Sequence record: OR424386.1 | Strand: one strand, 5' to 3' | Source: Escherichia phage vB-Eco-KMB25 | Length of the DNA stretch: 50,475 nt | Part shown: in pieces, positions 19,721-50,475 of the stretch | Position numbering within the stretch: position 1 is the first letter of the stretch | Layout: every line of letters begins with the position of its first letter | Position numbers and translations under genes: made by a program | The notes under the pieces: generated by a model | Database searches by the model: none | What the model saw: the letters and a program-made list of their open reading frames with translations, nothing else | What the model was told of the DNA's origin: nothing

Positions 19721-20029
19721 ATGAGTTACGATATTGCAACATGGGACGCAAACGGCGTTTACAATAACTATGGAATTAAGCCAGTTTCAGTAATATCAAA
19801 TATACAACTTTCATCAGGTCAAACATCTGGGCAATGGTTTTTTAATGTTCCACAAGGTAAAAAATTAGGCTATGTTGTTGGTCTTGATATTGGAGGTACT
19901 CAGGTTGGAAGGAAGATTGAAGTTTCTGGAAATTCTATAATTGTTAGCGCAGCATTATCTGGAAACGTAGGTTATAATTATTACCCTGCATCGCAATGTG
20001 AAGTTATCGTGTATTTGGAGAATGCATAA
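19721..20029 (+). CDS. small tail-associated protein (hypothetical)
   Basis: 102 aa with strong RBS AAAGAGGTG; contains WDANG motif shared with the ORF at the window end. Confidence 0.3.
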   Translation: MSYDIATWDANGVYNNYGIKPVSVISNIQLSSGQTSGQWFFNVPQGKKLGYVVGLDIGGTQVGRKIEVSGNSIIVSAALSGNVGYNYYPASQCEVIVYLENA

Positions 20030-20279
20030 TGTCTTATGGAGCAATGATTGATTACAAAAGTCAAACTTTCATAACGCCGGAATCAACTCCTTTTGTTAGG
20101 TTTACATTCCTGGTCAACAGCCTGTTATTGTTAACGTTTCTGCATATACTGCGGCAAGTTTTAACGGGTCAACAACGAGAATAAATGCCGCATCCAATCA
20201 GGCGGCTGGCGGTTCTCCTGTCGGTTATCTGAATACAGGCGTTGCGGTGACGGCAATTAATACAGCATCTTATGACTAA
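20029..20279 (+). pseudogene. frameshifted paralogue of the 3' part of the gene at 50018-50475
   Basis: ORF from ATG 20029 stops at 20184; the -1 frame (20100-20279) encodes VYIPGQQPVIVNVSAYTA... and is identical over at least 54 nt to 50422-50475; an in-frame TAG sits immediately before the homologous segment. Confidence 0.35.
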
Positions 20280-20306: not shown

Positions 20307-20537
20307 TTAAATGCTACAATCTGAGTTTTTGAAGTTATCAACGCTCACCCACTGATAACTGAACGGGTATCCAGGCTTAACAAGAGTACGATCACCCACT
20401 CTCTTAACACCGAATATTGCAACTTCATAATTCATGCCGCTGTTTTCATATGTGGCGCTACATTCTCTCTTTGGCATGTTTGAACATCCAGTAATTAGAA
20501 TTGATGCGGCAATTGCTGCAATGATTGATTTTTTCAT
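20307..20537 (-). CDS. small lipoprotein, Cor-like superinfection-exclusion candidate
   Basis: 76 aa from ATG 20537 (RBS AAGGAA); lipoprotein signal MKKSIIAAIAASILITGC; convergent and adjacent to the tail fibre genes, as Cor is in T1/phi80-type phages. Confidence 0.45.
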   Translation of the reverse strand: MKKSIIAAIAASILITGCSNMPKRECSATYENSGMNYEVAIFGVKRVGDRTLVKPGYPFSYQWVSVDNFKNSDCSI

Positions 20538-20585
20538 GGTTATTTCCTTGTCATTTTGAATTTGGTTCATAGTTTGTGTGAGATA

Positions 20586-20640
20586 ACTATGCTACTAAAA
20601 TCCAATTGTTGCAAGTATTGTTTTTAGCAAAAAGTGCTAT
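20586..20640 (-). promoter_or_regulatory. promoter of the lipoprotein gene: TTGCAA-17-CATAGT with an upstream dyad box
   Basis: Minus-strand -35 at 20609-20614 and -10 at 20586-20591; box TAGCACTTTTTGCTAAAAAC at 20621-20640. Confidence 0.4.
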
Positions 20641-20723
20641 CTGTTGTTTTCTTTTGTTCCAAGGTGTTCACAACTTAATCCGGCGTAAAATTGAAAACGT
20701 CTTGATAACAAAAAGAACAAATG

Positions 20724-20808
20724 AAATATCTATATAATACATACACTTAGAGTTTAATTATTATTATATATATCTATTTGTATTCTTCTTGTTTCTATTG
20801 TTCTCTAC
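20724..20808. repeat. AT-rich repeat element, copy 1
   Basis: AAATATCTATATAATACAT ... TAATTATTATTATATAT ... CTTGTTTCT, shared with 41222-41294. Confidence 0.5.
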
Positions 20809-21006
20809 GGTTTGTGGTTGTTGTGTGTTTTGTATTGGTTGATGGTTATATATCACATGGTATGTATTTATATATGGTATGCGGCGTAAATGCGTGAACA
20901 ATGGAACACAAAAACAACAATCAGTAAAATCATAAACTTACGATGTGATTTTGTTGTCAATGCTAGTTGTAAACGCATGCAAAACAAAAAGAACACTTAA
21001 ATGGTA

Positions 21007-21034
21007 TTGACTACATGCAACAAAGACATATAAT
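21007..21034 (+). promoter_or_regulatory. sigma70-type promoter TTGACT-16-TATAAT
   Basis: Near-consensus hexamers about 30 nt upstream of the exonuclease gene RBS. Confidence 0.6.
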
Positions 21035-21062
21035 GCAGACATACCAACGAGAGGATGACAAA

Positions 21063-22118
21063 ATGAGCGATTTTAAAGTTTACACCTTTGACCAGTTAAC
21101 CAATGATGAATATCACGATCCTAAAGGTTGGGCGGCTGAATACGTTAGCGGTTCAAGCCTGGCGGAAATCTTTGCAACTTGTCCGGCTGCATGGAAATAC
21201 AGACCACGCGAGGAAAGCAAAGCGCTTGTTTTCGGTACGCAGTCACACACCAACTTTCAAAGCAGTGAGTTGTTCGCAAAAGAGTACCGCCGAGCGCCAG
21301 CGCCGGAAGATTACGAAAACTTGATCACAAGCCAAACGGCATTAGCCAGCAAGTTAAAATCTTTTGGCCTGACTGGTACAAGCGGTAAAACTTATCCAGA
21401 CCTGATAAAAATGATGGTTGATTGTGGGGAGGATCTTAATGTTCAGTGGCTGATTGAAATGATCGCAGAGAGCCAGGCGCGAGCGGATAACGTTGAATTG
21501 GTTCCGGCTAAAGATTACGACGCTTGCGTTACCATGCGCCGCGTACTTGAAAACATACCGGAACACAACGCTTGCATGAATAGCCCAACAGCACAACGCG
21601 AGCTATCAATTTTCGGATCTATTAAAGGCGTTAAAGTCAAAGTAAGGCTTGACCATGTTGATATTTGCAAGGATGTGCTTGCAACGGTGATTTCCGGCTA
21701 TGACGGTGAAGGGAATCCGGTTTATGAAACAACGCGATTTGATGAAGCTATTGTGATCACTGATTACAAAACAACGTCAAGCGCTAACCCAACGGAGTTT
21801 TCACGGCTGGCATTCAATCACGGATACTACTTGAAAATGGCATTGCAGCATGACCTATTCAAGAAAGCGTATCCAGAAGAAACGCGCCCCGTAGTAGTCA
21901 GATTGCTGGCGCAGGAAAAGAAAGAGCCTTATTTACCGATTGCATACCGCATGACGGATGAACAATTGAAGATCGGACGGCTTCAATACATGAGTGTGAT
22001 AAACCAGTTTGCAGAATGCCAGGCAAATGACAGTTGGCCTTCATACGCAAACGGAGAGCCTGAAATTGATCTTCAAACGCCTGATTGGGTACGCAGACAA
22101 TACAAAGGTTTTTTATAA
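21063..22118 (+). CDS. PD-(D/E)xK family exonuclease (recombination exonuclease candidate)
   Basis: ATG 21063 behind GAGAGGA; motifs RLDHVD ... ITDYKTT resemble the D..(D/E)xK nuclease core; lies upstream of the Erf-like and SSB genes. Confidence 0.5.
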   Translation: MSDFKVYTFDQLTNDEYHDPKGWAAEYVSGSSLAEIFATCPAAWKYRPREESKALVFGTQSHTNFQSSELFAKEYRRAPAPEDYENLITSQTALASKLKSFGLTGTSGKTYPDLIKMMVDCGEDLNVQWLIEMIAESQARADNVELVPAKDYDACVTMRRVLENIPEHNACMNSPTAQRELSIFGSIKGVKVKVRLDHVDICKDVLATVISGYDGEGNPVYETTRFDEAIVITDYKTTSSANPTEFSRLAFNHGYYLKMALQHDLFKKAYPEETRPVVVRLLAQEKKEPYLPIAYRMTDEQLKIGRLQYMSVINQFAECQANDSWPSYANGEPEIDLQTPDWVRRQYKGFL

Positions 22119-25989: not shown

Positions 25990-26916
25990 TTATAATAAGT
26001 CACTTGCCTTGTAAAGCCTCCGCTCTATTCCATTTTTGAATTTACCGTTAATTGGTAGCATTACGTCTAATTCGCGATCATCAGCAGAAATCAAAGTATC
26101 GCGATCATTAGCATGGCACACAACGCGCATTTTGCGATCTCCTTTGTATCTGTATGCAACAATTTCAAGATTTGAAGGCGAGAAACACGCCCATACTTCT
26201 TGCCCCGTCGCCAGGTGTATATGTTGCGCATCAATCCAATCAACGCAAAGGTAAATTGTTTTGTCAGTCTTGCCAGTTACCGCAACGCTTCCACGCGTGT
26301 AATCTTTCGCGTAAAAACTGCTTTTACCTTCCTCATTGACGAAAAGAATATTGCACATGTCATCATCCAATTCATCACTATGCACCAGGTGGCAAGGAAT
26401 AGCGTGTATATGCTCGCAATATCCATTTTCATGAGTTTTTACGCCAACTTGATACGATTCGCCGTCTAATGGATAAAACGCCTCAAAAACGCTTAGATTT
26501 GTTATTTCCATGCGTTCAGTTTTATCCATAACCTCAACACATTTTTCATGAGTTGCTTGCGATCCGAAATTGTAACCGGAGTCACGTTTTGCCGCTTTGT
26601 TAGCCTTGTTGACAACCTCAACCGGAACCAGGTTTAACCATTCGCCTAGAGTGTCGATTGCTTCACTGTAATTTTCACCACGTATGCGCATGAATAATCC
26701 GATCCCTGAATCATTCCCGCATTGGTTGCAAATGTTGCCGCCGTCGCCTTTCTCGTTGATTTTGTCCGTCCATCTGAAACGGTCTTTACCTCCACAATAA
26801 GGGCATGGTTGATGCTTTCCGTTAAAGGTTAATTGAGGAATATCACAAAGTTTCATCAATGCCGCTTGCCACATTCCGCGCATCTTTGGGATCACTTCTT
26901 CTTTCTGGTAATGCAT
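25990..26916 (-). CDS. DNA primase-like protein (zinc-binding)
   Basis: N-terminal CPYCGG...CNQCG zinc-ribbon-like motif; adjacent to the helicase gene; RBS GGAGG. Confidence 0.45.
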   Translation of the reverse strand: MHYQKEEVIPKMRGMWQAALMKLCDIPQLTFNGKHQPCPYCGGKDRFRWTDKINEKGDGGNICNQCGNDSGIGLFMRIRGENYSEAIDTLGEWLNLVPVEVVNKANKAAKRDSGYNFGSQATHEKCVEVMDKTERMEITNLSVFEAFYPLDGESYQVGVKTHENGYCEHIHAIPCHLVHSDELDDDMCNILFVNEEGKSSFYAKDYTRGSVAVTGKTDKTIYLCVDWIDAQHIHLATGQEVWACFSPSNLEIVAYRYKGDRKMRVVCHANDRDTLISADDRELDVMLPINGKFKNGIERRLYKASDLL

Positions 26917-26948: not shown

Positions 26949-26991
26949 ATGATAAACCATGCCAGGCCGGAATTTTTAGCAATCAGTGCTA
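26949..26991 (-). promoter_or_regulatory. dyad-box promoter (TAGCACTGATTGCTAAAAA, 18 bp, TATCAT)
   Basis: Box overlaps the last codons of the upstream gene (..DSTDC stop). Confidence 0.45.
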
Positions 26992-27584
26992 TCGACGGAA
27001 ATCACAACGCGTTTCTTCTGATTGGCTTCCTTTGCTTTGCGCCGTTCTTCTTTCGCCTTGTCGCGTTCAGCTTTGCGCCGCGCTTTCTCCTTCTCGCGTT
27101 CTTCTGGAGTCATAGACCGTAACGGATCGTAAGGCCGAACAAATCCGCGCGCCTCCGCTTCTTCTTTTGTGACAAATCGCATGAGCTTTCTGTTGCTGCA
27201 ACGATTCTCTAATGGCTTGCCGTTGTTGTCAAAGCGCAAATCTGGACGGCAATATGAAGCGCGGAAACCGTTAAAACCTTTGCGGCGGTAATCCTTTTGG
27301 ATCAGTTCAGCGCCTTTAGCTGAAATCATTCCGCGCTCTTTCCATCCCCACACTGTTTTAAGGTTAACGCCAATCTCACGCGCCAACGCAGCACAGCCGC
27401 CATAAGCGCTAACCACTTCATCAAGCCTAGCTTTTAATCCTGCCCTTACTTCTTCCTTTAGTACCAGATAACCGCTAACAGGTGCGCGGCGCTTCCGGTC
27501 TTTACCACGCCTTACGCCGTTGTTACCATTGATTGTGCGTTTGTCGATTTCGCCCGTTGAGGCCGCAATTTTGATTCCGCCCAT
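26976..27584 (-). CDS. putative DNA-binding protein with Lys/Arg/Glu-rich C-terminus
   Basis: ATG 27584 behind AGGTGA; HTH-like segment AALAREIGVNLKTVWGW; protein ends DSTDC, encoded by the dyad box. Confidence 0.3.
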   Translation of the reverse strand: MGGIKIAASTGEIDKRTINGNNGVRRGKDRKRRAPVSGYLVLKEEVRAGLKARLDEVVSAYGGCAALAREIGVNLKTVWGWKERGMISAKGAELIQKDYRRKGFNGFRASYCRPDLRFDNNGKPLENRCSNRKLMRFVTKEEAEARGFVRPYDPLRSMTPEEREKEKARRKAERDKAKEERRKAKEANQKKRVVISVDSTDC

Positions 27585-27595
27585 ATTTTCACCTA

Positions 27596-27637
27596 TAGCA
27601 CTTTTTGCTAAAACTATTGAGTAAGTTTGTGTATGAT
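27596..27637 (+). promoter_or_regulatory. dyad-box promoter (TAGCACTTTTTGCTAAAAC, 17 bp, TATGAT)
   Basis: Upstream of the helicase gene. Confidence 0.5.
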
Positions 27638-27672
27638 ATGGTGCAAATGGCATTTAGTCAAAAGGATAAGTA

Positions 27673-35082: not shown

Positions 35083-36663
35083 TTACCCCATTAACGCCGG
35101 ATTTACATAAACAAATTTACCAACGCTGCAAACATAATTCTTTTCTTCAAGCATTGGCAATAATTGTTCCTCAATTCGTTTCATCACGCCTGATTGACCT
35201 GTAAACGGCTTAACCTTACGCGCACTTTCATAGATGGCTCTTGCATTGGTAACTCCTTTATTTTGACGTGAGATCTTAATGATGATTTCAATTAACTTGC
35301 TCATTTCGGCATCATCGCCAGCGTGACCGGAAGCATTAGCGGCGTTGATATATGTTTTGCTTAATTCGCTGAACATCACCAAAGCCTCTTGCATTGTCTC
35401 AACTTCAATTTCTCGCGACTTTTGCGGCGTACCGTTTGGATTAAACCAATTGCGGATCGTGTGCAATACTGACGCAATGCGGATCACTTGCTTATCCATT
35501 TTGCCCAAAGCACCACGCAACATTGTATGTGAATATTTCCCGCCGTCTGCTAAATCTGGCTCTAATTGCTGGCGAGCAATATTAAGAACACGCATTGCAG
35601 AACGTGACGGCTTCAATACAACATTTTGCTCAGTCATGATGTTATGAATCAACTGGAAATATTGCGCCTTTAATTCTTTATCAACTGGCGTGTAATCAAG
35701 ATCACCATTTTCATCAATAAATACACGCTCGCCTAACATTGTTTTTTCACGTACAAGCAAGAAACGTTCACTAACACCGATACCACGCGCCCCTGCATCC
35801 ATGATCCCTTTTATCGTTTCATCCTGGGCAATTACGCTCATGCAGCCCAACGCAACAAAACTCATATTGTTTTCAGAGTTGGCGCGAGCTATTGAAACGT
35901 GTCCGGCGTCCCATGCTTTTAGAACCAATTCGCTGTTAGTCTTGCGATCACTATTAGCGTAAGTCAATCCGAGTAAGCTGTTGATGCTTGTTGCTTCATC
36001 GGAAATGACAGCAAAGTTACCCTGGCGATTGTTGATCTTTGCTAACCCTTCCGGCGTGGTGTCTGATACCGGAAAAACGATATCGCACATTTTTTCTAAC
36101 TTTTCCTCTAATTCCTCCTTTTCCTCAAACAACGCAGCTAACTCAGTGCCGGAACGTTCAGCTTTCAATTCCTTTTCAACGCCTTTTAATTTCGCTGCGA
36201 TCTTCTTTCGCTCTTTCTTGCGTTGTTCGTTGATGCGCTCAACTTCACAGACCATTGGCGCAATAGCCAGGCTGTTGATTGCTGATTTACCAGTTGATGG
36301 CGGCTGACTGGTTACAACATAAAGCGCCGTTGGTTGTTCAGTGCCGTGGTACTCAACTTGGAAGCGTCCAACCATAGCGGCGGAAACGCAACCAATGAAA
36401 TGCATATAGGCCGATGATTCAGGAAATTGAACAGATTGCGCAATGCTACGTGACAGTTTACCCACAACATCAACATCATTACCCAAAGAGATCACAGGAT
36501 AGCGGTCATTAGCGCCGTTAATATCCTTTACAGGTTCCCAAAAGCTGGACGATTGGCGGTAGCCGTTCGACTGAATAGCAACGCGAAGCGGCGATGTTCC
36601 CTGCGATTCTGCAATGGCTATAACTTGTTGAGGTGTCAATTTGTTGGTGTCAAAGTCAAACAT
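35083..36663 (-). CDS. P-loop NTPase (Walker A/B), possible replication-associated ATPase
   Basis: 526 aa; Walker A TSQPPSTGKS and Walker B-like VISDEAT. Confidence 0.45.
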   Translation of the reverse strand: MFDFDTNKLTPQQVIAIAESQGTSPLRVAIQSNGYRQSSSFWEPVKDINGANDRYPVISLGNDVDVVGKLSRSIAQSVQFPESSAYMHFIGCVSAAMVGRFQVEYHGTEQPTALYVVTSQPPSTGKSAINSLAIAPMVCEVERINEQRKKERKKIAAKLKGVEKELKAERSGTELAALFEEKEELEEKLEKMCDIVFPVSDTTPEGLAKINNRQGNFAVISDEATSINSLLGLTYANSDRKTNSELVLKAWDAGHVSIARANSENNMSFVALGCMSVIAQDETIKGIMDAGARGIGVSERFLLVREKTMLGERVFIDENGDLDYTPVDKELKAQYFQLIHNIMTEQNVVLKPSRSAMRVLNIARQQLEPDLADGGKYSHTMLRGALGKMDKQVIRIASVLHTIRNWFNPNGTPQKSREIEVETMQEALVMFSELSKTYINAANASGHAGDDAEMSKLIEIIIKISRQNKGVTNARAIYESARKVKPFTGQSGVMKRIEEQLLPMLEEKNYVCSVGKFVYVNPALMG

Positions 36664-40819: not shown

Positions 40820-40850
40820 CGTGAATTCCTCAGTTCGTTTCGATGAAGCA

Positions 40851-40893
40851 ATCATAGCAATTCGCGTCTGATTGGTTTTAACAAAAAGTGCTA
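40851..40893 (-). promoter_or_regulatory. dyad-box promoter (TAGCACTTTTTGTTAAAAC, 18 bp, TATGAT)
   Basis: Outermost promoter of the minus-strand cluster, at the edge of the AT-rich region. Confidence 0.5.
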
Positions 40894-40902
40894 TTCATGC
40901 GA

Positions 40903-40932
40903 TAGACCGATTGGTCTAGACCGTTTGGTCTA
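40903..40932. repeat. two tandem inverted repeats TAGACC-N4-GGTCTA (operator-like)
   Basis: TAGACCGATTGGTCTA and TAGACCGTTTGGTCTA overlap by 2 bp. Confidence 0.5.
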
Positions 40933-41221
40933 ATGAACGCATCGTTTTGTGTATCGAACGCATTCATGATCCTGTTACGTGATCGTTATATGATCAGATG
41001 ATGATTGATGTGTGAGATTTTGTGATTGAAATTGATTTGATTTGATTAGATTTGAGTAGTGAGAGAGTAGAAATAATCACACCTTGCCGATCAGTGAAAA
41101 CTTTTCCCGCAAAACATCACTCCATGCTCCGCGCGTTTCGTTTTGTTCCTCGTTGTTTTCCGCCAGACCTTCCGCAGTTTAGCGCAACGTTACACAACAC
41201 GTATAACAACAAAATATCTAT

Positions 41222-41294
41222 ATAATACATTGAAAAGTAAGATAATTATTATTATATATCTATATTGTTATATAACTTGTTTTGCTTGTTTCTC
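41222..41294. repeat. AT-rich repeat element, copy 2
   Basis: Shares the 19-nt core AAATATCTATATAATACAT and the TAATTATTATTATATAT block with 20724-20808. Confidence 0.5.
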
Positions 41295-41482
41295 ATGATA
41301 TTGATACCCCTTTACTGATTGATAGAGTATAAAATTATAAGATAGGTGCTCTTATTTATTATAGGTGGCGGTGATTTTTAGCGAAATGGTGTAACGATTT
41401 AGAACATCGTTGATTTGAAAGGATAAATTTTCAATTACTGTTACATTGCGTGATGTTTTTGTTGTCTAATCAAAAATAACAC

Positions 41483-41510
41483 TTGACGCATAAGCCAGGC
41501 TTGCTAAGAT
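41483..41510 (+). promoter_or_regulatory. sigma70-type early promoter TTGACG-16-TAAGAT
   Basis: Upstream A-rich tract; about 35 nt before the GGAGG RBS of the first early gene. Confidence 0.55.
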
Positions 41511-41544
41511 TTCTGCATCTAGCAACAACGGAGGATAACCAATC

Positions 41545-41832
41545 ATGGTAAGGGGCAAAATCGTAAAGCGTGACCTATCCATAGTTGACGCAACGCCAGA
41601 AGATGCAACCAAAGATATCATGCGCCTAATGTACATAGCACGGATACTGGAGGCTGCAAAACCAAACAGGCTGTATTACATCGACATTAAGGCATCTGGT
41701 CGAGATGTTAACTCATTGCGCCAGGCAATAAACACTATTGCGAAAGAGGATCGCATAACCATTAAGACAATAACCACTGATAACGGCTATATAGGCTTTG
41801 TTATCATCGACGTTAAAGAAGCGTTTGTGTAA
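41545..41832 (+). CDS. hypothetical early protein
   Basis: 95-aa ORF with RBS GGAGG. Confidence 0.3.
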   Translation: MVRGKIVKRDLSIVDATPEDATKDIMRLMYIARILEAAKPNRLYYIDIKASGRDVNSLRQAINTIAKEDRITIKTITTDNGYIGFVIIDVKEAFV

Positions 41833-49309: not shown

Positions 49310-50017
49310 AAACGCCGTGAACATAAGAGGCTCAATAGAGCAAAGCGCGGCGCGTTAGCCGTAAAACCTAATCGGATGGGATTGCATAGCAAACGACCAT
49401 CGCGGGAACCGTAACCCGCAACCATTCAGGAGAATTCACGATGCAAAACAAAGAAATCGCAAAGGTAACTATCATCGTCGAGCGTGACGGAAAGAAAACG
49501 CGATACAAGAAGCGATTTAAACAAGGTGAGGCGATGTTAGGCCGGATCGGTGATTTCATGGTGAAATTGCAAGAGGATAAACCGGATGAAATTCAAGGTT
49601 AAGCTAACTATCCGGCGCATGGGTCGCAATTGCGGATCATGTAAACAAGATTTCGAATGCGAGGTTGAAGCGCTAAACACTGTTGATGCGGTTAAATGCG
49701 CTAAAGTTCTTTCAGGTGCTAACCCTGAAACACACCAATTTTCAATCAATTATGTGAGGGCTATATAATGCTGATGTTCATTGCTGGTTTTGGTTTTTGT
49801 GCGATTATCTGTTTCTTTCTCTATCTTTGTTTTTCGTGGGGTGTACAGCGTTGCGTAAAAGACAACGAATTAGTGATCGCCATTTACGAAAACAAAGCTG
49901 ATAAATGGAAGATTACTAAAAACTTTGAAAAGATTGCTGATGAAATTGCATTCCGTCGCAAGTTTGGCAAGCCTGGAAGCATCAAGTATATTGATTGATT
50001 TATATTCAAGAACGGAA

Positions 50018-50475
50018 GTGGTAGCAACAAAAACAACTGGCGAAAACGTAAGCGCAATATCAAGAGTTTATTGCCCTAGATCATATTCTGCCATTGGATT
50101 TATAAAATGCTCATGGGGTGCGGCTTTAGGTTGTTATAGGGACGGTGATTATATAGTTTTTAGCGGATCTGCACAGGGTAGGAATGTGCCGTTGTTTACA
50201 ATAACATGTTATTTATTTGCTAAATTTCCACAACCATTACCGCAATGGGGCATGGCTATATGGGATGCAAACGGTACATGCATTCTAACAAATGAAAGCA
50301 AGCCATTATCGGATCTTATTACTATTGGAGAACCTGGTTCTGGCGGTGGAATATATATAGATCAGACATTATCTGGTTCTTATGCTGTTATGCCTAGATT
50401 GATGGGCTCTACTTTAGTTCAGGTTTACATTCCTGGTCAACAGCCTGTTATTGTTAACGTTTCTGCATATACTGC
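50018..50475 (+). CDS. tail fibre-like / receptor-recognition candidate, truncated by the window end
   Basis: Frame open from 49940 to the window edge; start uncertain (GTG 50018 or ATG 50252); WDANG motif as in 19721-20029 and 3' end identical to 20099-20152. Confidence 0.35.
   Translation, partial: MVATKTTGENVSAISRVYCPRSYSAIGFIKCSWGAALGCYRDGDYIVFSGSAQGRNVPLFTITCYLFAKFPQPLPQWGMAIWDANGTCILTNESKPLSDLITIGEPGSGGGIYIDQTLSGSYAVMPRLMGSTLVQVYIPGQQPVIVNVSAYT

What the first reader, a model, noticed from the sequence alone, without database searches (positions are those of the whole stretch)
20570..21062. AT-rich non-coding region 1 shares an ~85-bp element with region 2 (40894-41544); each precedes a strong early promoter
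Two of the longest non-coding stretches (about 450 and 650 bp) separate the major transcription blocks. Both contain a near-identical element (AAATATCTATATAATACAT followed by a TAATTATTATTATATAT block and CTTGTTTCT, at 20724-20808 and 41222-41294). Both end with a strong sigma70 promoter (TTGACT-16-TATAAT at 21007-21034; TTGACG-16-TAAGAT at 41483-41510) driving rightward genes. Region 1 also has G/T-rich reiterations (GGTTTGTGGTTGTTGTGTG, ATGGTATG twice). These may be early-promoter control regions, a replication origin, or packaging-related sequence.
Basis: seen in the sequence. Interest (0 to 1): 0.5.

Follow-up and report, generated by a model that had tools for sequence, protein, structure and literature searches.

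The report
Twin origin-like modules in T1-like phage
The shared AT-rich element is real and is the core of a ~160-400 bp non-coding module that T1-like phages keep in two copies, one upstream of each of two early promoters; it looks most like a replication origin, which has never been found for this phage family, but this is inferred from sequence only.

Summary
The window is a Tlsvirus (T1-like, Drexlerviridae) genome closest to Citrobacter phage Stevie. Similarity extends further, 20646-20802 versus 41135-41290, and far exceeds composition-matched shuffles. Both copies are conserved family-wide, in T1 and an Rtp-like phage too. The cores are the two least stable duplex stretches genome-wide in all four genomes tested. 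They have dyad symmetry and are flanked by five phased arrays of TGTT/AACA half-sites. The half-site changes between subfamilies but matches between the two copies of one genome. In Tls-like phages it reads TGTTCAC/GTGAACA, like the type-1 iterons of satellite phage P4 ori/crr, and the phage primase is homologous to the P4 alpha primase domain. The two boxes are invariant in 10 Tlsviruses while the spacer varies. The two sigma70 promoters match P51 and P01 published for TLS. The pac terminus lies in region 2 but 110-200 nt left of the shared module. Best reading (about 0.45): paired iteron-plus-unwinding-element origins coupled to early promoters. Main rival: an early-promoter control module. 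No experiment supports either.

The parts
20620..20642 (-). 21-nt 'DR' repeat (AGATAGCACTTTTTGCTAAAA on the minus strand) upstream of cor. It is not part of the duplicated module and marks the module's left neighbour.
   Evidence: the DR family is described for TLS in PMC11447400
20644..20706 (+). Left arm of module copy 1. Array 1 has TGTT at 20645, 20655 and 20665 (TGTTCC 20655-60, TGTTCAC 20665-71), followed by CCGGCGTAAAA at 20680-90. Conservation with relatives and paralogy with copy 2 both begin here.
20707..20805 (+). Dyad-symmetric AT-rich core of copy 1. It comprises array 2 (AACAAAAAGAACAA, 20707-20), box 1 (20724-42, containing TATAAT at 20733-38), a variable 12-nt spacer, box 2 (20755-71) and array 3 (CTTGTTTCTATTGTTCTC, 20788-805). 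Inverted-repeat arms are 20705-36 and 20767-98.
20806..20880 (+). G/T-rich stretch and a second small AT patch (ATGGTATG twice). Its sequence is variable between genera.
20881..20922 (+). Right arm of copy 1: GCGGCGTAAAT (20881-91), then array 4 (GTGAACAATGGAACAC, 20894-909, continuing as AAAAACAACAA). Array 4 is inverted relative to array 1.
20928..20940 (+). IHF-consensus-like site, AATCATAAACTTA. It has one mismatch here and matches WATCAANNNNTTR perfectly in several relatives.
20983..21040 (+). Array 5 (AACAAAAAGAACAC, 20983-96, in the position of an UP element) plus the sigma70 promoter TTGACT (21007-12) - 16 nt - TATAAT (21029-34). This is the equivalent of TLS P51 and drives recE-recT-ssb.
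40846..40895 (-). Leftward DR-type promoter (DR at 40874-95 with an extended -10, TGCTATGAT, 16 nt downstream) for the 156-aa gene.
40903..40932 (.). Two overlapping 16-bp palindromes, TAGACCGATTGGTCTA and TAGACCGTTTGGTCTA. They look like an operator and are specific to region 2.
40967..41110 (+). Packaging (pac) side of region 2: three TGATC at 40967, 40980 and 40991, then TGATT/GATTT reiterations. TLS position 1 equals 41015, and other records start at positions equal to 41073 and 41104.
41134..41211 (+). Left arm of module copy 2: TTTTGTTCC...GTTGTTTTCC (array 1) and AACACGTATAACAACA (array 2, 41196-211). The mosaic junction with Stevie lies at 41134-41137.
41212..41292 (+). AT-rich core of copy 2: box 1 (41212-30, TATAAT at 41221-26), a copy-specific 12-nt spacer, box 2 (41243-59) and array 3 (TGTT at 41266, 41278, 41287). 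Inverted-repeat arms are 41193-227 and 41250-84. This is the least stable duplex stretch of the genome.
41293..41482 (+). Right part of copy 2: a second AT patch (41323-62), TTTAGCGAAA...TAGAACATCG (a degenerate array 4) and TCAAAAATAACAC (array 5, 41470-82).
41483..41510 (+). Sigma70 promoter TTGACG - 16 nt - (TGc)TAAGAT, the positional equivalent of TLS P01. It drives the rightward block of small early genes (ATG at 41545).

Best explanation
Regions 1 and 2 each carry one copy of an origin-like cis module.

Anatomy (shown): a dyad-symmetric, extremely AT-rich core is bracketed by phased arrays of a short half-site (TGTTC/GAACA here). The arrays are arranged as inverted repeats around the core, and one further array abuts the neighbouring sigma70 early promoter.

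Proposed mechanism (inferred):
1. A phage-encoded sequence-specific protein binds the arrays. The best candidate is the Cro-like HTH protein at 26979-27584, co-transcribed with the primase from the third early promoter.
2. It forms a nucleoprotein complex that melts the core.
3. The P4-alpha-like primase and the phage helicase(s) then start DNA synthesis with host polymerase.
4. The box 1 TATAAT, pointing into box 2, may add a priming or activating transcript as in T4 oriF/oriG. The strong early promoter firing away from the core would add negative supercoiling.
5. The two copies, 20.5 kb apart, would act as two origins, or as an origin plus a cis enhancer as in P4 ori/crr.

The anatomy, conservation and co-variation are shown. 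Protein binding, melting and initiation are inferred.
For: 1. Duplex stability. By nearest-neighbour free energy, the two cores are the number 1 and number 2 least stable duplex stretches genome-wide. This holds in the window and Stevie (z 4.3-5.2, next best 3.4), in the Rtp-like phage MSK and in T1 (z 6.25 and 5.53, next 3.4). These represent three subfamilies.
2. Dyad symmetry. Each core has 32-35-nt inverted-repeat arms at 72-74% complementarity.
3. Phased arrays. Five TGTT/AACA arrays with 8-11-nt period recur in the same order and orientation in both regions across Tempevirinae. TGTTC[AC][AC] is enriched: 4 of 29 genome copies lie in the modules against 0.47 expected, and 7 of 31 in Stevie against 0.53.
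4. Co-variation. The half-site differs by subfamily: GTGAACA in Tls-like phages, GTAACA/GATTAACA in T1, GTATACA/GGTTACA in MSK. The core variants differ too, yet the two copies within one genome match each other. This implies a co-evolving phage-encoded binder, because these phages share a host.
5. P4 resemblance. In the annotated P4 record the ori type-1 repeats are TGTTCACC. They stand in tandem at about 10-nt period around an AT-rich stretch and are shared by ori and crr. The window's primase aligns to P4 alpha residues 31-262 (E = 2e-14).
6. Purifying selection. Boxes 1 and 2 have 0 variable columns of 36 in 10 Tlsviruses. The spacer has 5 of 12 variable. Pairwise diversity in the module is 0.04-0.09 against 0.16 at recE third codon positions.
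7. An origin is still missing. None has been identified in TLS or SU57.
8. Organisation around the core. Four of the five arrays are positioned relative to the core rather than the promoter, and the core-to-promoter distance varies from about 240 to 300 nt.
Against: - There are no replication data of any kind.
- The P4 resemblance rests on a 7-8-nt motif. No homologue of the alpha C-terminal DNA-binding domain was detected by tblastn.
- One array abuts the -35 hexamer, and an A-rich motif recurs before both the core TATAAT and the promoter. That fits transcription control equally well.
- The top-strand TATAAT, conserved in most but not all copies, could simply be a promoter.
- T1-like phages encode RecE/RecT and may rely largely on recombination-dependent replication.
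- The window's IHF-like site has one mismatch, and the passages of the LL5 Keio-screen paper retrieved by term search contained no 'ihf'.
- High AT content alone would give low duplex stability.
Confidence: 0.45

Rival explanations
1. The module is a control region for early promoters. A phage (or host) regulator binds the TGTT/AACA arrays to activate or shut off P51 and P01, perhaps by looping. Alternatively, box 1 is a second promoter that lacks a -35 hexamer and depends on an activator, giving the recE and gp01 operons a later transcript with a roughly 300-nt leader.
For: - The module always lies upstream of, and points the same way as, two of the three sigma70 promoters.
- Array 5 occupies positions -38 to -50 of the promoter.
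- The A-rich motif before the core TATAAT resembles the one before the -35 hexamer in the same region: AAACAAAATAAACA twice in W011D, AGAACAAGAAAAAC twice in Samwise (window).
- TATAAT on the top strand is kept in most copies, while the bottom-strand counterpart is not.
- The module and its downstream genes are exchanged together, with mosaic junctions at the module's left edge.
Against: - The third sigma70 promoter (window 27632-27661, minus strand) has no such module.
- No -35 hexamer lies upstream of the core TATAAT, and the promoter scan did not call it.
- The most constrained parts are the AT-rich boxes 270 nt from the promoter, not sequences overlapping it.
- Control of a promoter does not explain the dyad symmetry or the extreme duplex instability of the core.
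Confidence: 0.3
2. The shared element is packaging-related, serving as the pac recognition site. Earlier literature linked ATATA repeats to the T1 pac site.
For: - Region 2 holds the pac terminus in TLS, T1 and relatives.
- Some deposited genomes start 31-140 nt before the core.
- The MSK paper reports that Wietzorrek et al. predicted five ATATA repeats in T1 in connection with pac.
Against: - Region 1 carries the same element, yet TLS restriction analysis describes a single pac fragment series.
- The MSK PhageTerm terminus (36,862) is about 125 nt left of that phage's core, and the TLS assignment is 197 nt left of it.
- The TGATC/TGATT-rich pac-side sequence is absent from region 1.
Confidence: 0.05
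3. The element encodes a non-coding RNA or a small protein.
For: Some deposited annotations place hypothetical ORFs over it. The minus strand of region 1 folds better than shuffles (z = -2.6).
Against: - There are no Rfam matches, even at E = 1.
- Plus-strand folds are no better than shuffles (z = 0.02 and -0.22).
- No terminator is predicted.
- The minus-strand signal comes from the inverted arrays 1 and 4.
- Alignments between genera are full of indels that are not multiples of three.
Confidence: 0.05
4. The element is a host-factor-dependent feature only: a DnaA-type origin, or a binding platform for H-NS, IHF or Fis with no phage-specific recognition.
For: The sequence is AT-rich and has phased A-tracts. 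An IHF-like consensus lies between arrays 4 and 5 in many relatives.
Against: - No DnaA box (TTWTNCACA) lies in either region. There are 2 genome-wide against 7.7 expected.
- The half-sites differ between phages that infect the same host.
- The window has no strict IHF consensus in either region.
Confidence: 0.08

Closest known systems
Satellite phage P4 ori and crr (type-1 iterons bound by the alpha primase-helicase)
   Same: - Two cis regions kilobases apart share the same short repeat.
- The repeat is TGTTCACC, with variants such as TGTTCACA, in tandem at about 10-nt period and in both orientations around an AT-rich stretch (P4 record). The window has TGTTCC-N4-TGTTCAC and GTGAACA-N2-GGAACA, and TLS has GTGAACAcGTGAACAg.
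- The phage primase is homologous to the alpha primase domain (E = 2e-14).
   Different: - Here the primase, helicase and putative binder are separate genes.
- No homologue of the alpha DNA-binding domain was found.
- The AT core is much larger, about 80 bp, with dyad symmetry.
- The half-site differs in T1 and Rtp-like phages.
- The two copies are 20.5 kb apart, and each is coupled to an early promoter.
- That alpha binds the P4 repeats is recalled from the literature and was not tested here.
Bacillus phage SPP1 oriL / oriR (from memory)
   Same: A pac-type siphovirus with two origin regions tens of kilobases apart. Each has repeated boxes for one phage initiator next to an AT-rich stretch.
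   Different: The proteins and sequences are unrelated. SPP1 oriL lies inside the initiator gene, whereas both copies here are intergenic. This comparison was not tested here.
T4 oriF(uvsY)/oriG(34) and the T7 primary origin (promoter followed by an AT-rich unwinding element; from memory)
   Same: A good -10 element without a -35 hexamer, with a possible activator site in its place, points into an AT-rich stretch that melts easily.
   Different: No transcript has been shown here. No MotA/AsiA-type or phage RNA polymerase system is known in T1-like phages.
Published TLS regulatory map (PMC11447400)
   Same: The two flanking sigma70 promoters correspond to P51 and P01. The DR repeats at the left edge of both regions are the published 21-nt repeats. 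The pac site is placed in region 2.
   Different: That paper reports no origin and states that no lambda-like iterons occur anywhere in the TLS genome. In the passages and Table S1 that I read, it does not describe the duplicated AT-rich module.

Membership tests
Iteron-type replication origin (P4 ori/crr-like) | Clustered short repeats (iterons) in phased tandem arrays | tested here: met
   Five TGTT/AACA arrays with 8-11-nt period stand in conserved order in both regions and across genera. TGTTC[AC][AC] is enriched 8- to 13-fold in the modules. The motif equals 7 of 8 bases of the P4 type-1 repeat, and one P4 crr copy, TGTTCACA, is identical.
Iteron-type replication origin (P4 ori/crr-like) | Adjacent AT-rich DNA-unwinding element | tested here: met
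   The cores are the two least stable duplex stretches in four genomes of three subfamilies. This is a property consistent with unwinding; unwinding itself was not demonstrated.
Iteron-type replication origin (P4 ori/crr-like) | Specific binding of a cognate initiator protein to the repeats | not testable with these tools
   The evidence is indirect only. Half-sites co-vary between subfamilies and between the two copies. The predicted recognition helix of the Cro-like regulator differs between the window, T1 and MSK. No alpha DNA-binding-domain homologue was found.
Iteron-type replication origin (P4 ori/crr-like) | Replication initiates there, or the fragment supports replication | not testable with these tools
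   No marker-frequency or cloning data were found in the literature searched.
DnaA-dependent (oriC-type) origin | Cluster of DnaA boxes (TTWTNCACA) | tested here: not met
   There are only 2 matches in the window (2109, 44109) and none in either region; 7.7 are expected by chance.
Sigma70 promoter (flanking promoters) | -35 and -10 hexamers with 16-18-nt spacing, conserved in relatives | tested here: met
   21007-21034 matches 11 of 12 positions. 41483-41510 matches 9 of 12 and has an upstream TG. They correspond to TLS P51 and P01. The -35 hexamer is conserved in 44 of 45 loci.
Sigma70 promoter (core box 1 TATAAT) | -35 hexamer or extended -10 accompanying the -10 hexamer | tested here: not met
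   No -35-like hexamer lies 16-18 nt upstream of 20733-38 or 41221-26, and there is no TGn. The scan did not report these sites.
pac site | Coincides with the mapped packaging terminus and is unique in the genome | tested here: not met
   Published termini map 110-200 nt left of the copy 2 core. The element also occurs in region 1.
Known RNA family (Rfam) | Covariance-model match | tested here: not met
   There were no matches at gathering score for the whole window, nor at E <= 1 for 20500-21100.

The most novel reading that the evidence does not exclude
T1-like phages replicate from a pair of P4-like iteron origins. A Cro-like initiator, encoded next to a P4-alpha-type primase, binds TGTTCAC-type arrays around a promoter-plus-unwinding core. 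The two copies, one next to pac and one next to the recombination genes, cooperate by looping or handcuffing as P4 ori and crr do. This would tie the replication module of a classical virulent phage family to that of the P4 satellites.
Probability: 0.25. Interest if true: 0.65.

Novelty: new member of a known kind. Interest (0 to 1): 0.45.

Why it matters
T1 is one of the original T phages, and Drexlerviridae are common in phage collections and as laboratory and fermentation contaminants. Even so, recent genome papers on the family state that no origin has been found (TLS 2024, SU57 2020).

A concrete two-locus candidate, with defined boxes and half-sites, makes the question directly testable. 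Suitable tests are marker-frequency sequencing, footprinting and small deletions. It would also guide genome engineering by showing which non-coding DNA must be kept. If the rival reading is right instead, the module is the missing control element of the early promoters.

Tried and rejected
- **RNA gene.** Rfam scans of the whole window at gathering score and of region 1 at E <= 1 found nothing. ARAGORN found no tRNA or tmRNA. Plus-strand RNA folds of both regions were no better than shuffles. I rejected this reading.
- **Exact-pattern scan of IMG/VR with box 1**. Half of the 28 hits were chance matches in unrelated AT-rich contigs. Only the Drexlerviridae hits were used.
- **Fetching region 2 through neighbouring proteins.** Using the 156-aa gene and the DUF7174 gene returned only 4 and 7 loci, because these genes are mosaic. 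Region 2 comparisons therefore rest on about 10 genomes.
- **Search for the binder.** The DUF3987 helicase, its C-terminus and the Cro-like regulator gave no informative PDB or NCBIfam matches. tblastn with the P4 alpha C-terminal and helicase parts against the window was negative. Homologues of the regulator are confined to T1-like contigs. I did not go on to structure prediction.
- **Literature.** The T1 genome paper and the P4 review are not in the library. A search for the literal string TGTTCACC returned only primer lists. The P4 repeats were taken from the annotated P4 record instead.
- **GC skew** follows gene orientation and gives no information about an origin.
- **DnaA boxes and the strict IHF consensus** are absent from both regions.
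- **Third copy.** BLAST of the element reported three places in Stevie and some other phages. I did not locate the third place. My local BLAST against the Stevie file returned nothing, probably because of a file-naming problem.

Full report
**What the window is.** BLAST of both regions against deposited phage genomes shows a Tlsvirus (Drexlerviridae, T1-like). Its closest relative is Citrobacter phage Stevie, and TLS, LL5 and many Salmonella and Citrobacter phages follow.

The gene map follows Stevie:
- terminase and structural genes on the plus strand, 1-20184;
- a Cor superinfection-exclusion lipoprotein gene on the minus strand at 20307-20570 (PHROG 1119);
- region 1, then recE (ATG 21063), recT and ssb;
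- a Cro-like regulator and a primase on the minus strand;
- a helicase, dam and lysis genes;
- a leftward block that includes a DUF3987 helicase;
- region 2 (40856-41544), then a rightward block of small early genes.

**Check of the observation.** It holds. Box 1 (AAATATCTATATAATACAT) and box 2 (TAATTATTATTATATAT) each occur exactly twice in 50 kb. They stand in the same order with the same 12-nt spacer, at 20724/20755 and 41212/41243.

The paralogy is longer than reported. A local alignment runs from 20646 to 20802 against 41135 to 41290 with score 40. Shuffles that preserve composition in 40-nt blocks gave 14.4 +/- 2.4, and 0 of 300 reached 40. The same test is positive in Stevie, TLS, W011D and T1 and in the Rtp-like phage MSK (59 against 13.6).

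The two promoters are as described. They correspond to P51 and P01, two of only three intergenic sigma70 promoters in the published TLS map (PMC11447400 Table S1). The TTGAC(T/A) -35 hexamer upstream of recE keeps nearly the same position in 44 of 45 related loci, T1 included.

**Anatomy.** Comparison of region 1 in 45 loci and region 2 in about 10 genomes of several genera shows one architecture in both regions. Reading rightward in copy 1:
1. Array 1: two or three TGTT half-sites at about 10-nt period (TGTTCC 20655, TGTTCAC 20665), followed by CCGGCGTAAAA.
2. Array 2: AACAAAAAGAACAA.
3. The AT core: box 1 containing TATAAT, a 12-nt spacer and box 2.
4. Array 3: CTTGTTTCTATTGTTCTC.
5. A G/T-rich variable stretch and a second small AT patch.
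6. GCGGCGTAAAT and array 4 (GTGAACAATGGAACAC), which is inverted relative to array 1.
7. A site resembling the IHF consensus.
8. Array 5 (AACAAAAAGAACAC), directly upstream of the -35 hexamer.

Arrays 2 and 3 make the core an imperfect palindrome with 32-35-nt arms at 72-74% complementarity. Arrays 1 and 4 form an outer inverted repeat. That outer repeat explains the only RNA-fold signal found, which is on the minus strand.

**Evidence of constraint.**
- In 10 Tlsvirus genomes, boxes 1 and 2 have no variable column (0 of 36).
- The spacer between the boxes has 5 variable columns of 12.
- Pairwise diversity in the module is 0.04-0.09. At recE third codon positions it is 0.16.
- The spacer is specific to each copy and conserved in orthologues. 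The identity of the boxes between copies therefore reflects selection, not recent gene conversion.
- Both the core variant and the half-site change between subfamilies. The half-site is GTGAACA in Tls-like phages, GTAACA/GATTAACA in T1 and GTATACA/GGTTACA in MSK. Within one genome the two copies share the same variant.
- T1, TLS and Rtp-like phages all infect E. coli. The binder is therefore most likely phage-encoded and co-evolving.
- The left edge of the paralogy coincides with mosaic junctions: 20644 in region 1, and 41134-41137 against Stevie in region 2.

**Physical property.** Nearest-neighbour free energies rank the two cores first and second for duplex instability at every window size. 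This holds in the window and Stevie, MSK and T1. Z-scores are 4.3-6.3 against about 3.4 for the next locus.

**Packaging.** The TLS paper mapped pac by restriction analysis and fixed position 1 by similarity to the P22 pac site. TLS position 1 equals window 41015. Other records start at positions equal to window 41014, 41073, 41104 and 41181.

The PhageTerm terminus published for MSK (36,862; PMC8421802) falls after a GTGAGTGAGTGAATGAAAG motif and about 125 nt left of that phage's AT core.

The pac side of region 2 has three TGATC sites (40967, 40980, 40991) and TGATT/GATTT reiterations. None of this recurs in region 1. Region 2 is therefore composite. Packaging belongs to its left third, and the shared module is something else.

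According to the MSK paper, earlier work linked ATATA repeats to the T1 pac site. The copy in region 1 argues against that idea.

**Comparison with known systems.** The T1 record describes its primase as similar to the alpha protein of P4-like elements. I confirmed that the window's primase aligns to P4 alpha residues 31-262 (E = 2e-14).

In the annotated P4 record the 'ori type 1 repeats' are TGTTCACC, with variants including TGTTCACA. They stand in tandem at about 10-nt spacing on both sides of an AT-rich stretch in ori. They recur in crr, about 4.9 kb away. P4 ori reads GGTGAACAGTGGTGAACAGACGGTGAACAG, and TLS region 2 reads cGTGAACAcGTGAACAgcgatGGAACA.

This is a resemblance in kind and in a 7-8-nt motif. 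It is not proof of homology. No counterpart of the alpha DNA-binding domain was found, and T1 and MSK use other half-sites.

The Cro-like HTH protein encoded just upstream of the primase is the best candidate binder. Its operon is driven by the third sigma70 promoter. The protein is confined to T1-like phages. Its predicted recognition helix differs between the window, T1 and MSK, while the 21-nt DR motif is the same in all three. This is inference only.

**Verdict.** The anatomy is that of an iteron-plus-unwinding-element origin present in two copies, each coupled to an early promoter. I give this reading about 0.45. SPP1 oriL/oriR and T4 oriF/oriG are functional analogies recalled from memory.

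The main rival, at about 0.3, is an early-promoter control module or a second promoter lacking a -35 hexamer. Three points favour it. Array 5 sits at the UP-element position. An A-rich motif recurs before both the core TATAAT and the -35 hexamer. The module travels with its downstream operon. The two readings are not mutually exclusive.

A packaging role, an RNA gene and a DnaA-type origin are each poorly supported. In the literature available here, no origin is known for this family. The module is therefore an undescribed and testable candidate, but it is not a new kind of element.

Noticed in passing
window, 20 sites, e.g. 22119, 42520, 43355, 45477, 46597, 47984 (+); 38827, 39565, 40384, 40894 (-): The published 21-nt DR repeat contains a palindrome, TAGCA-N5-TGCTA. 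In 10 of 20 copies an extended -10 (TGnTAnnnT) starts exactly 16 nt after the repeat, and most other copies have a -10 hexamer in the same register. This puts the palindrome centre near -41, the position of a class II activator site. These may therefore be activator-dependent promoters without a -35 hexamer. The TLS authors list the function of this repeat as an open question.
   Followed up: partly
window 40903-40932: Two overlapping 16-bp perfect palindromes (TAGACCGATTGGTCTA and TAGACCGTTTGGTCTA) lie just upstream of the leftward DR promoter of region 2. They are conserved in Stevie, TLS and DanielBernoulli. T1 has a TTCCA/TGGAA palindrome at the same place. They look like an operator for an unknown regulator.
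   Followed up: no
window 40967-41060: Three TGATC hexamers (Dam sites) within 30 nt are followed by TGATT/GATTT reiterations next to the mapped pac position. This recalls the methylation-sensitive TGATC(A/G) hexamers of the P1 pac site (from memory). The phage encodes its own Dam methylase. T1 has two GATC sites at the equivalent place.
   Followed up: no
window 49999-50475 and 20029-20270: The last 55 nt of the window are identical to 20098-20152. The last 477 nt form an open frame homologous to the middle of T1 ST31 (N15 gp23-like membrane-associated or receptor-binding protein), and that frame continues in frame at 20098 onward. The usual terminase-upstream intergenic region (Stevie 1-87) is missing. 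This looks like an assembly or rearrangement artefact in the receptor-binding-protein gene about 500 nt left of region 1. No close relative resolves it.
   Followed up: partly
window 20307-20570 (-): This 87-aa lipoprotein ORF is a Cor superinfection-exclusion protein (PHROG 1119, E = 2e-25). It is absent from Stevie. Its DR lacks the usual -10 hexamer at the standard distance.
   Followed up: partly
window 35083-36663 (-) and 25990-26916 (-): The phage carries a DUF3987 helicase, a second ResIII/SNF2-type helicase and a primase with a T7/P4-type zinc ribbon, encoded in three separate places. In effect these are the P4 alpha functions split across genes.
   Followed up: partly
window 41301-41328: A further sigma70-like site (TTGATA-16-TAGAGT with an upstream TG, 9 of 12 matches) lies just right of the copy 2 core. 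It occurs only in the window-type variant of region 2.
   Followed up: no
L002 (Stevie) and other genomes: BLAST of the 101-nt element reported three places per genome in Stevie, Mishu, ElisaCorrea, U136B and Sazh. The third place was not located.
   Followed up: no
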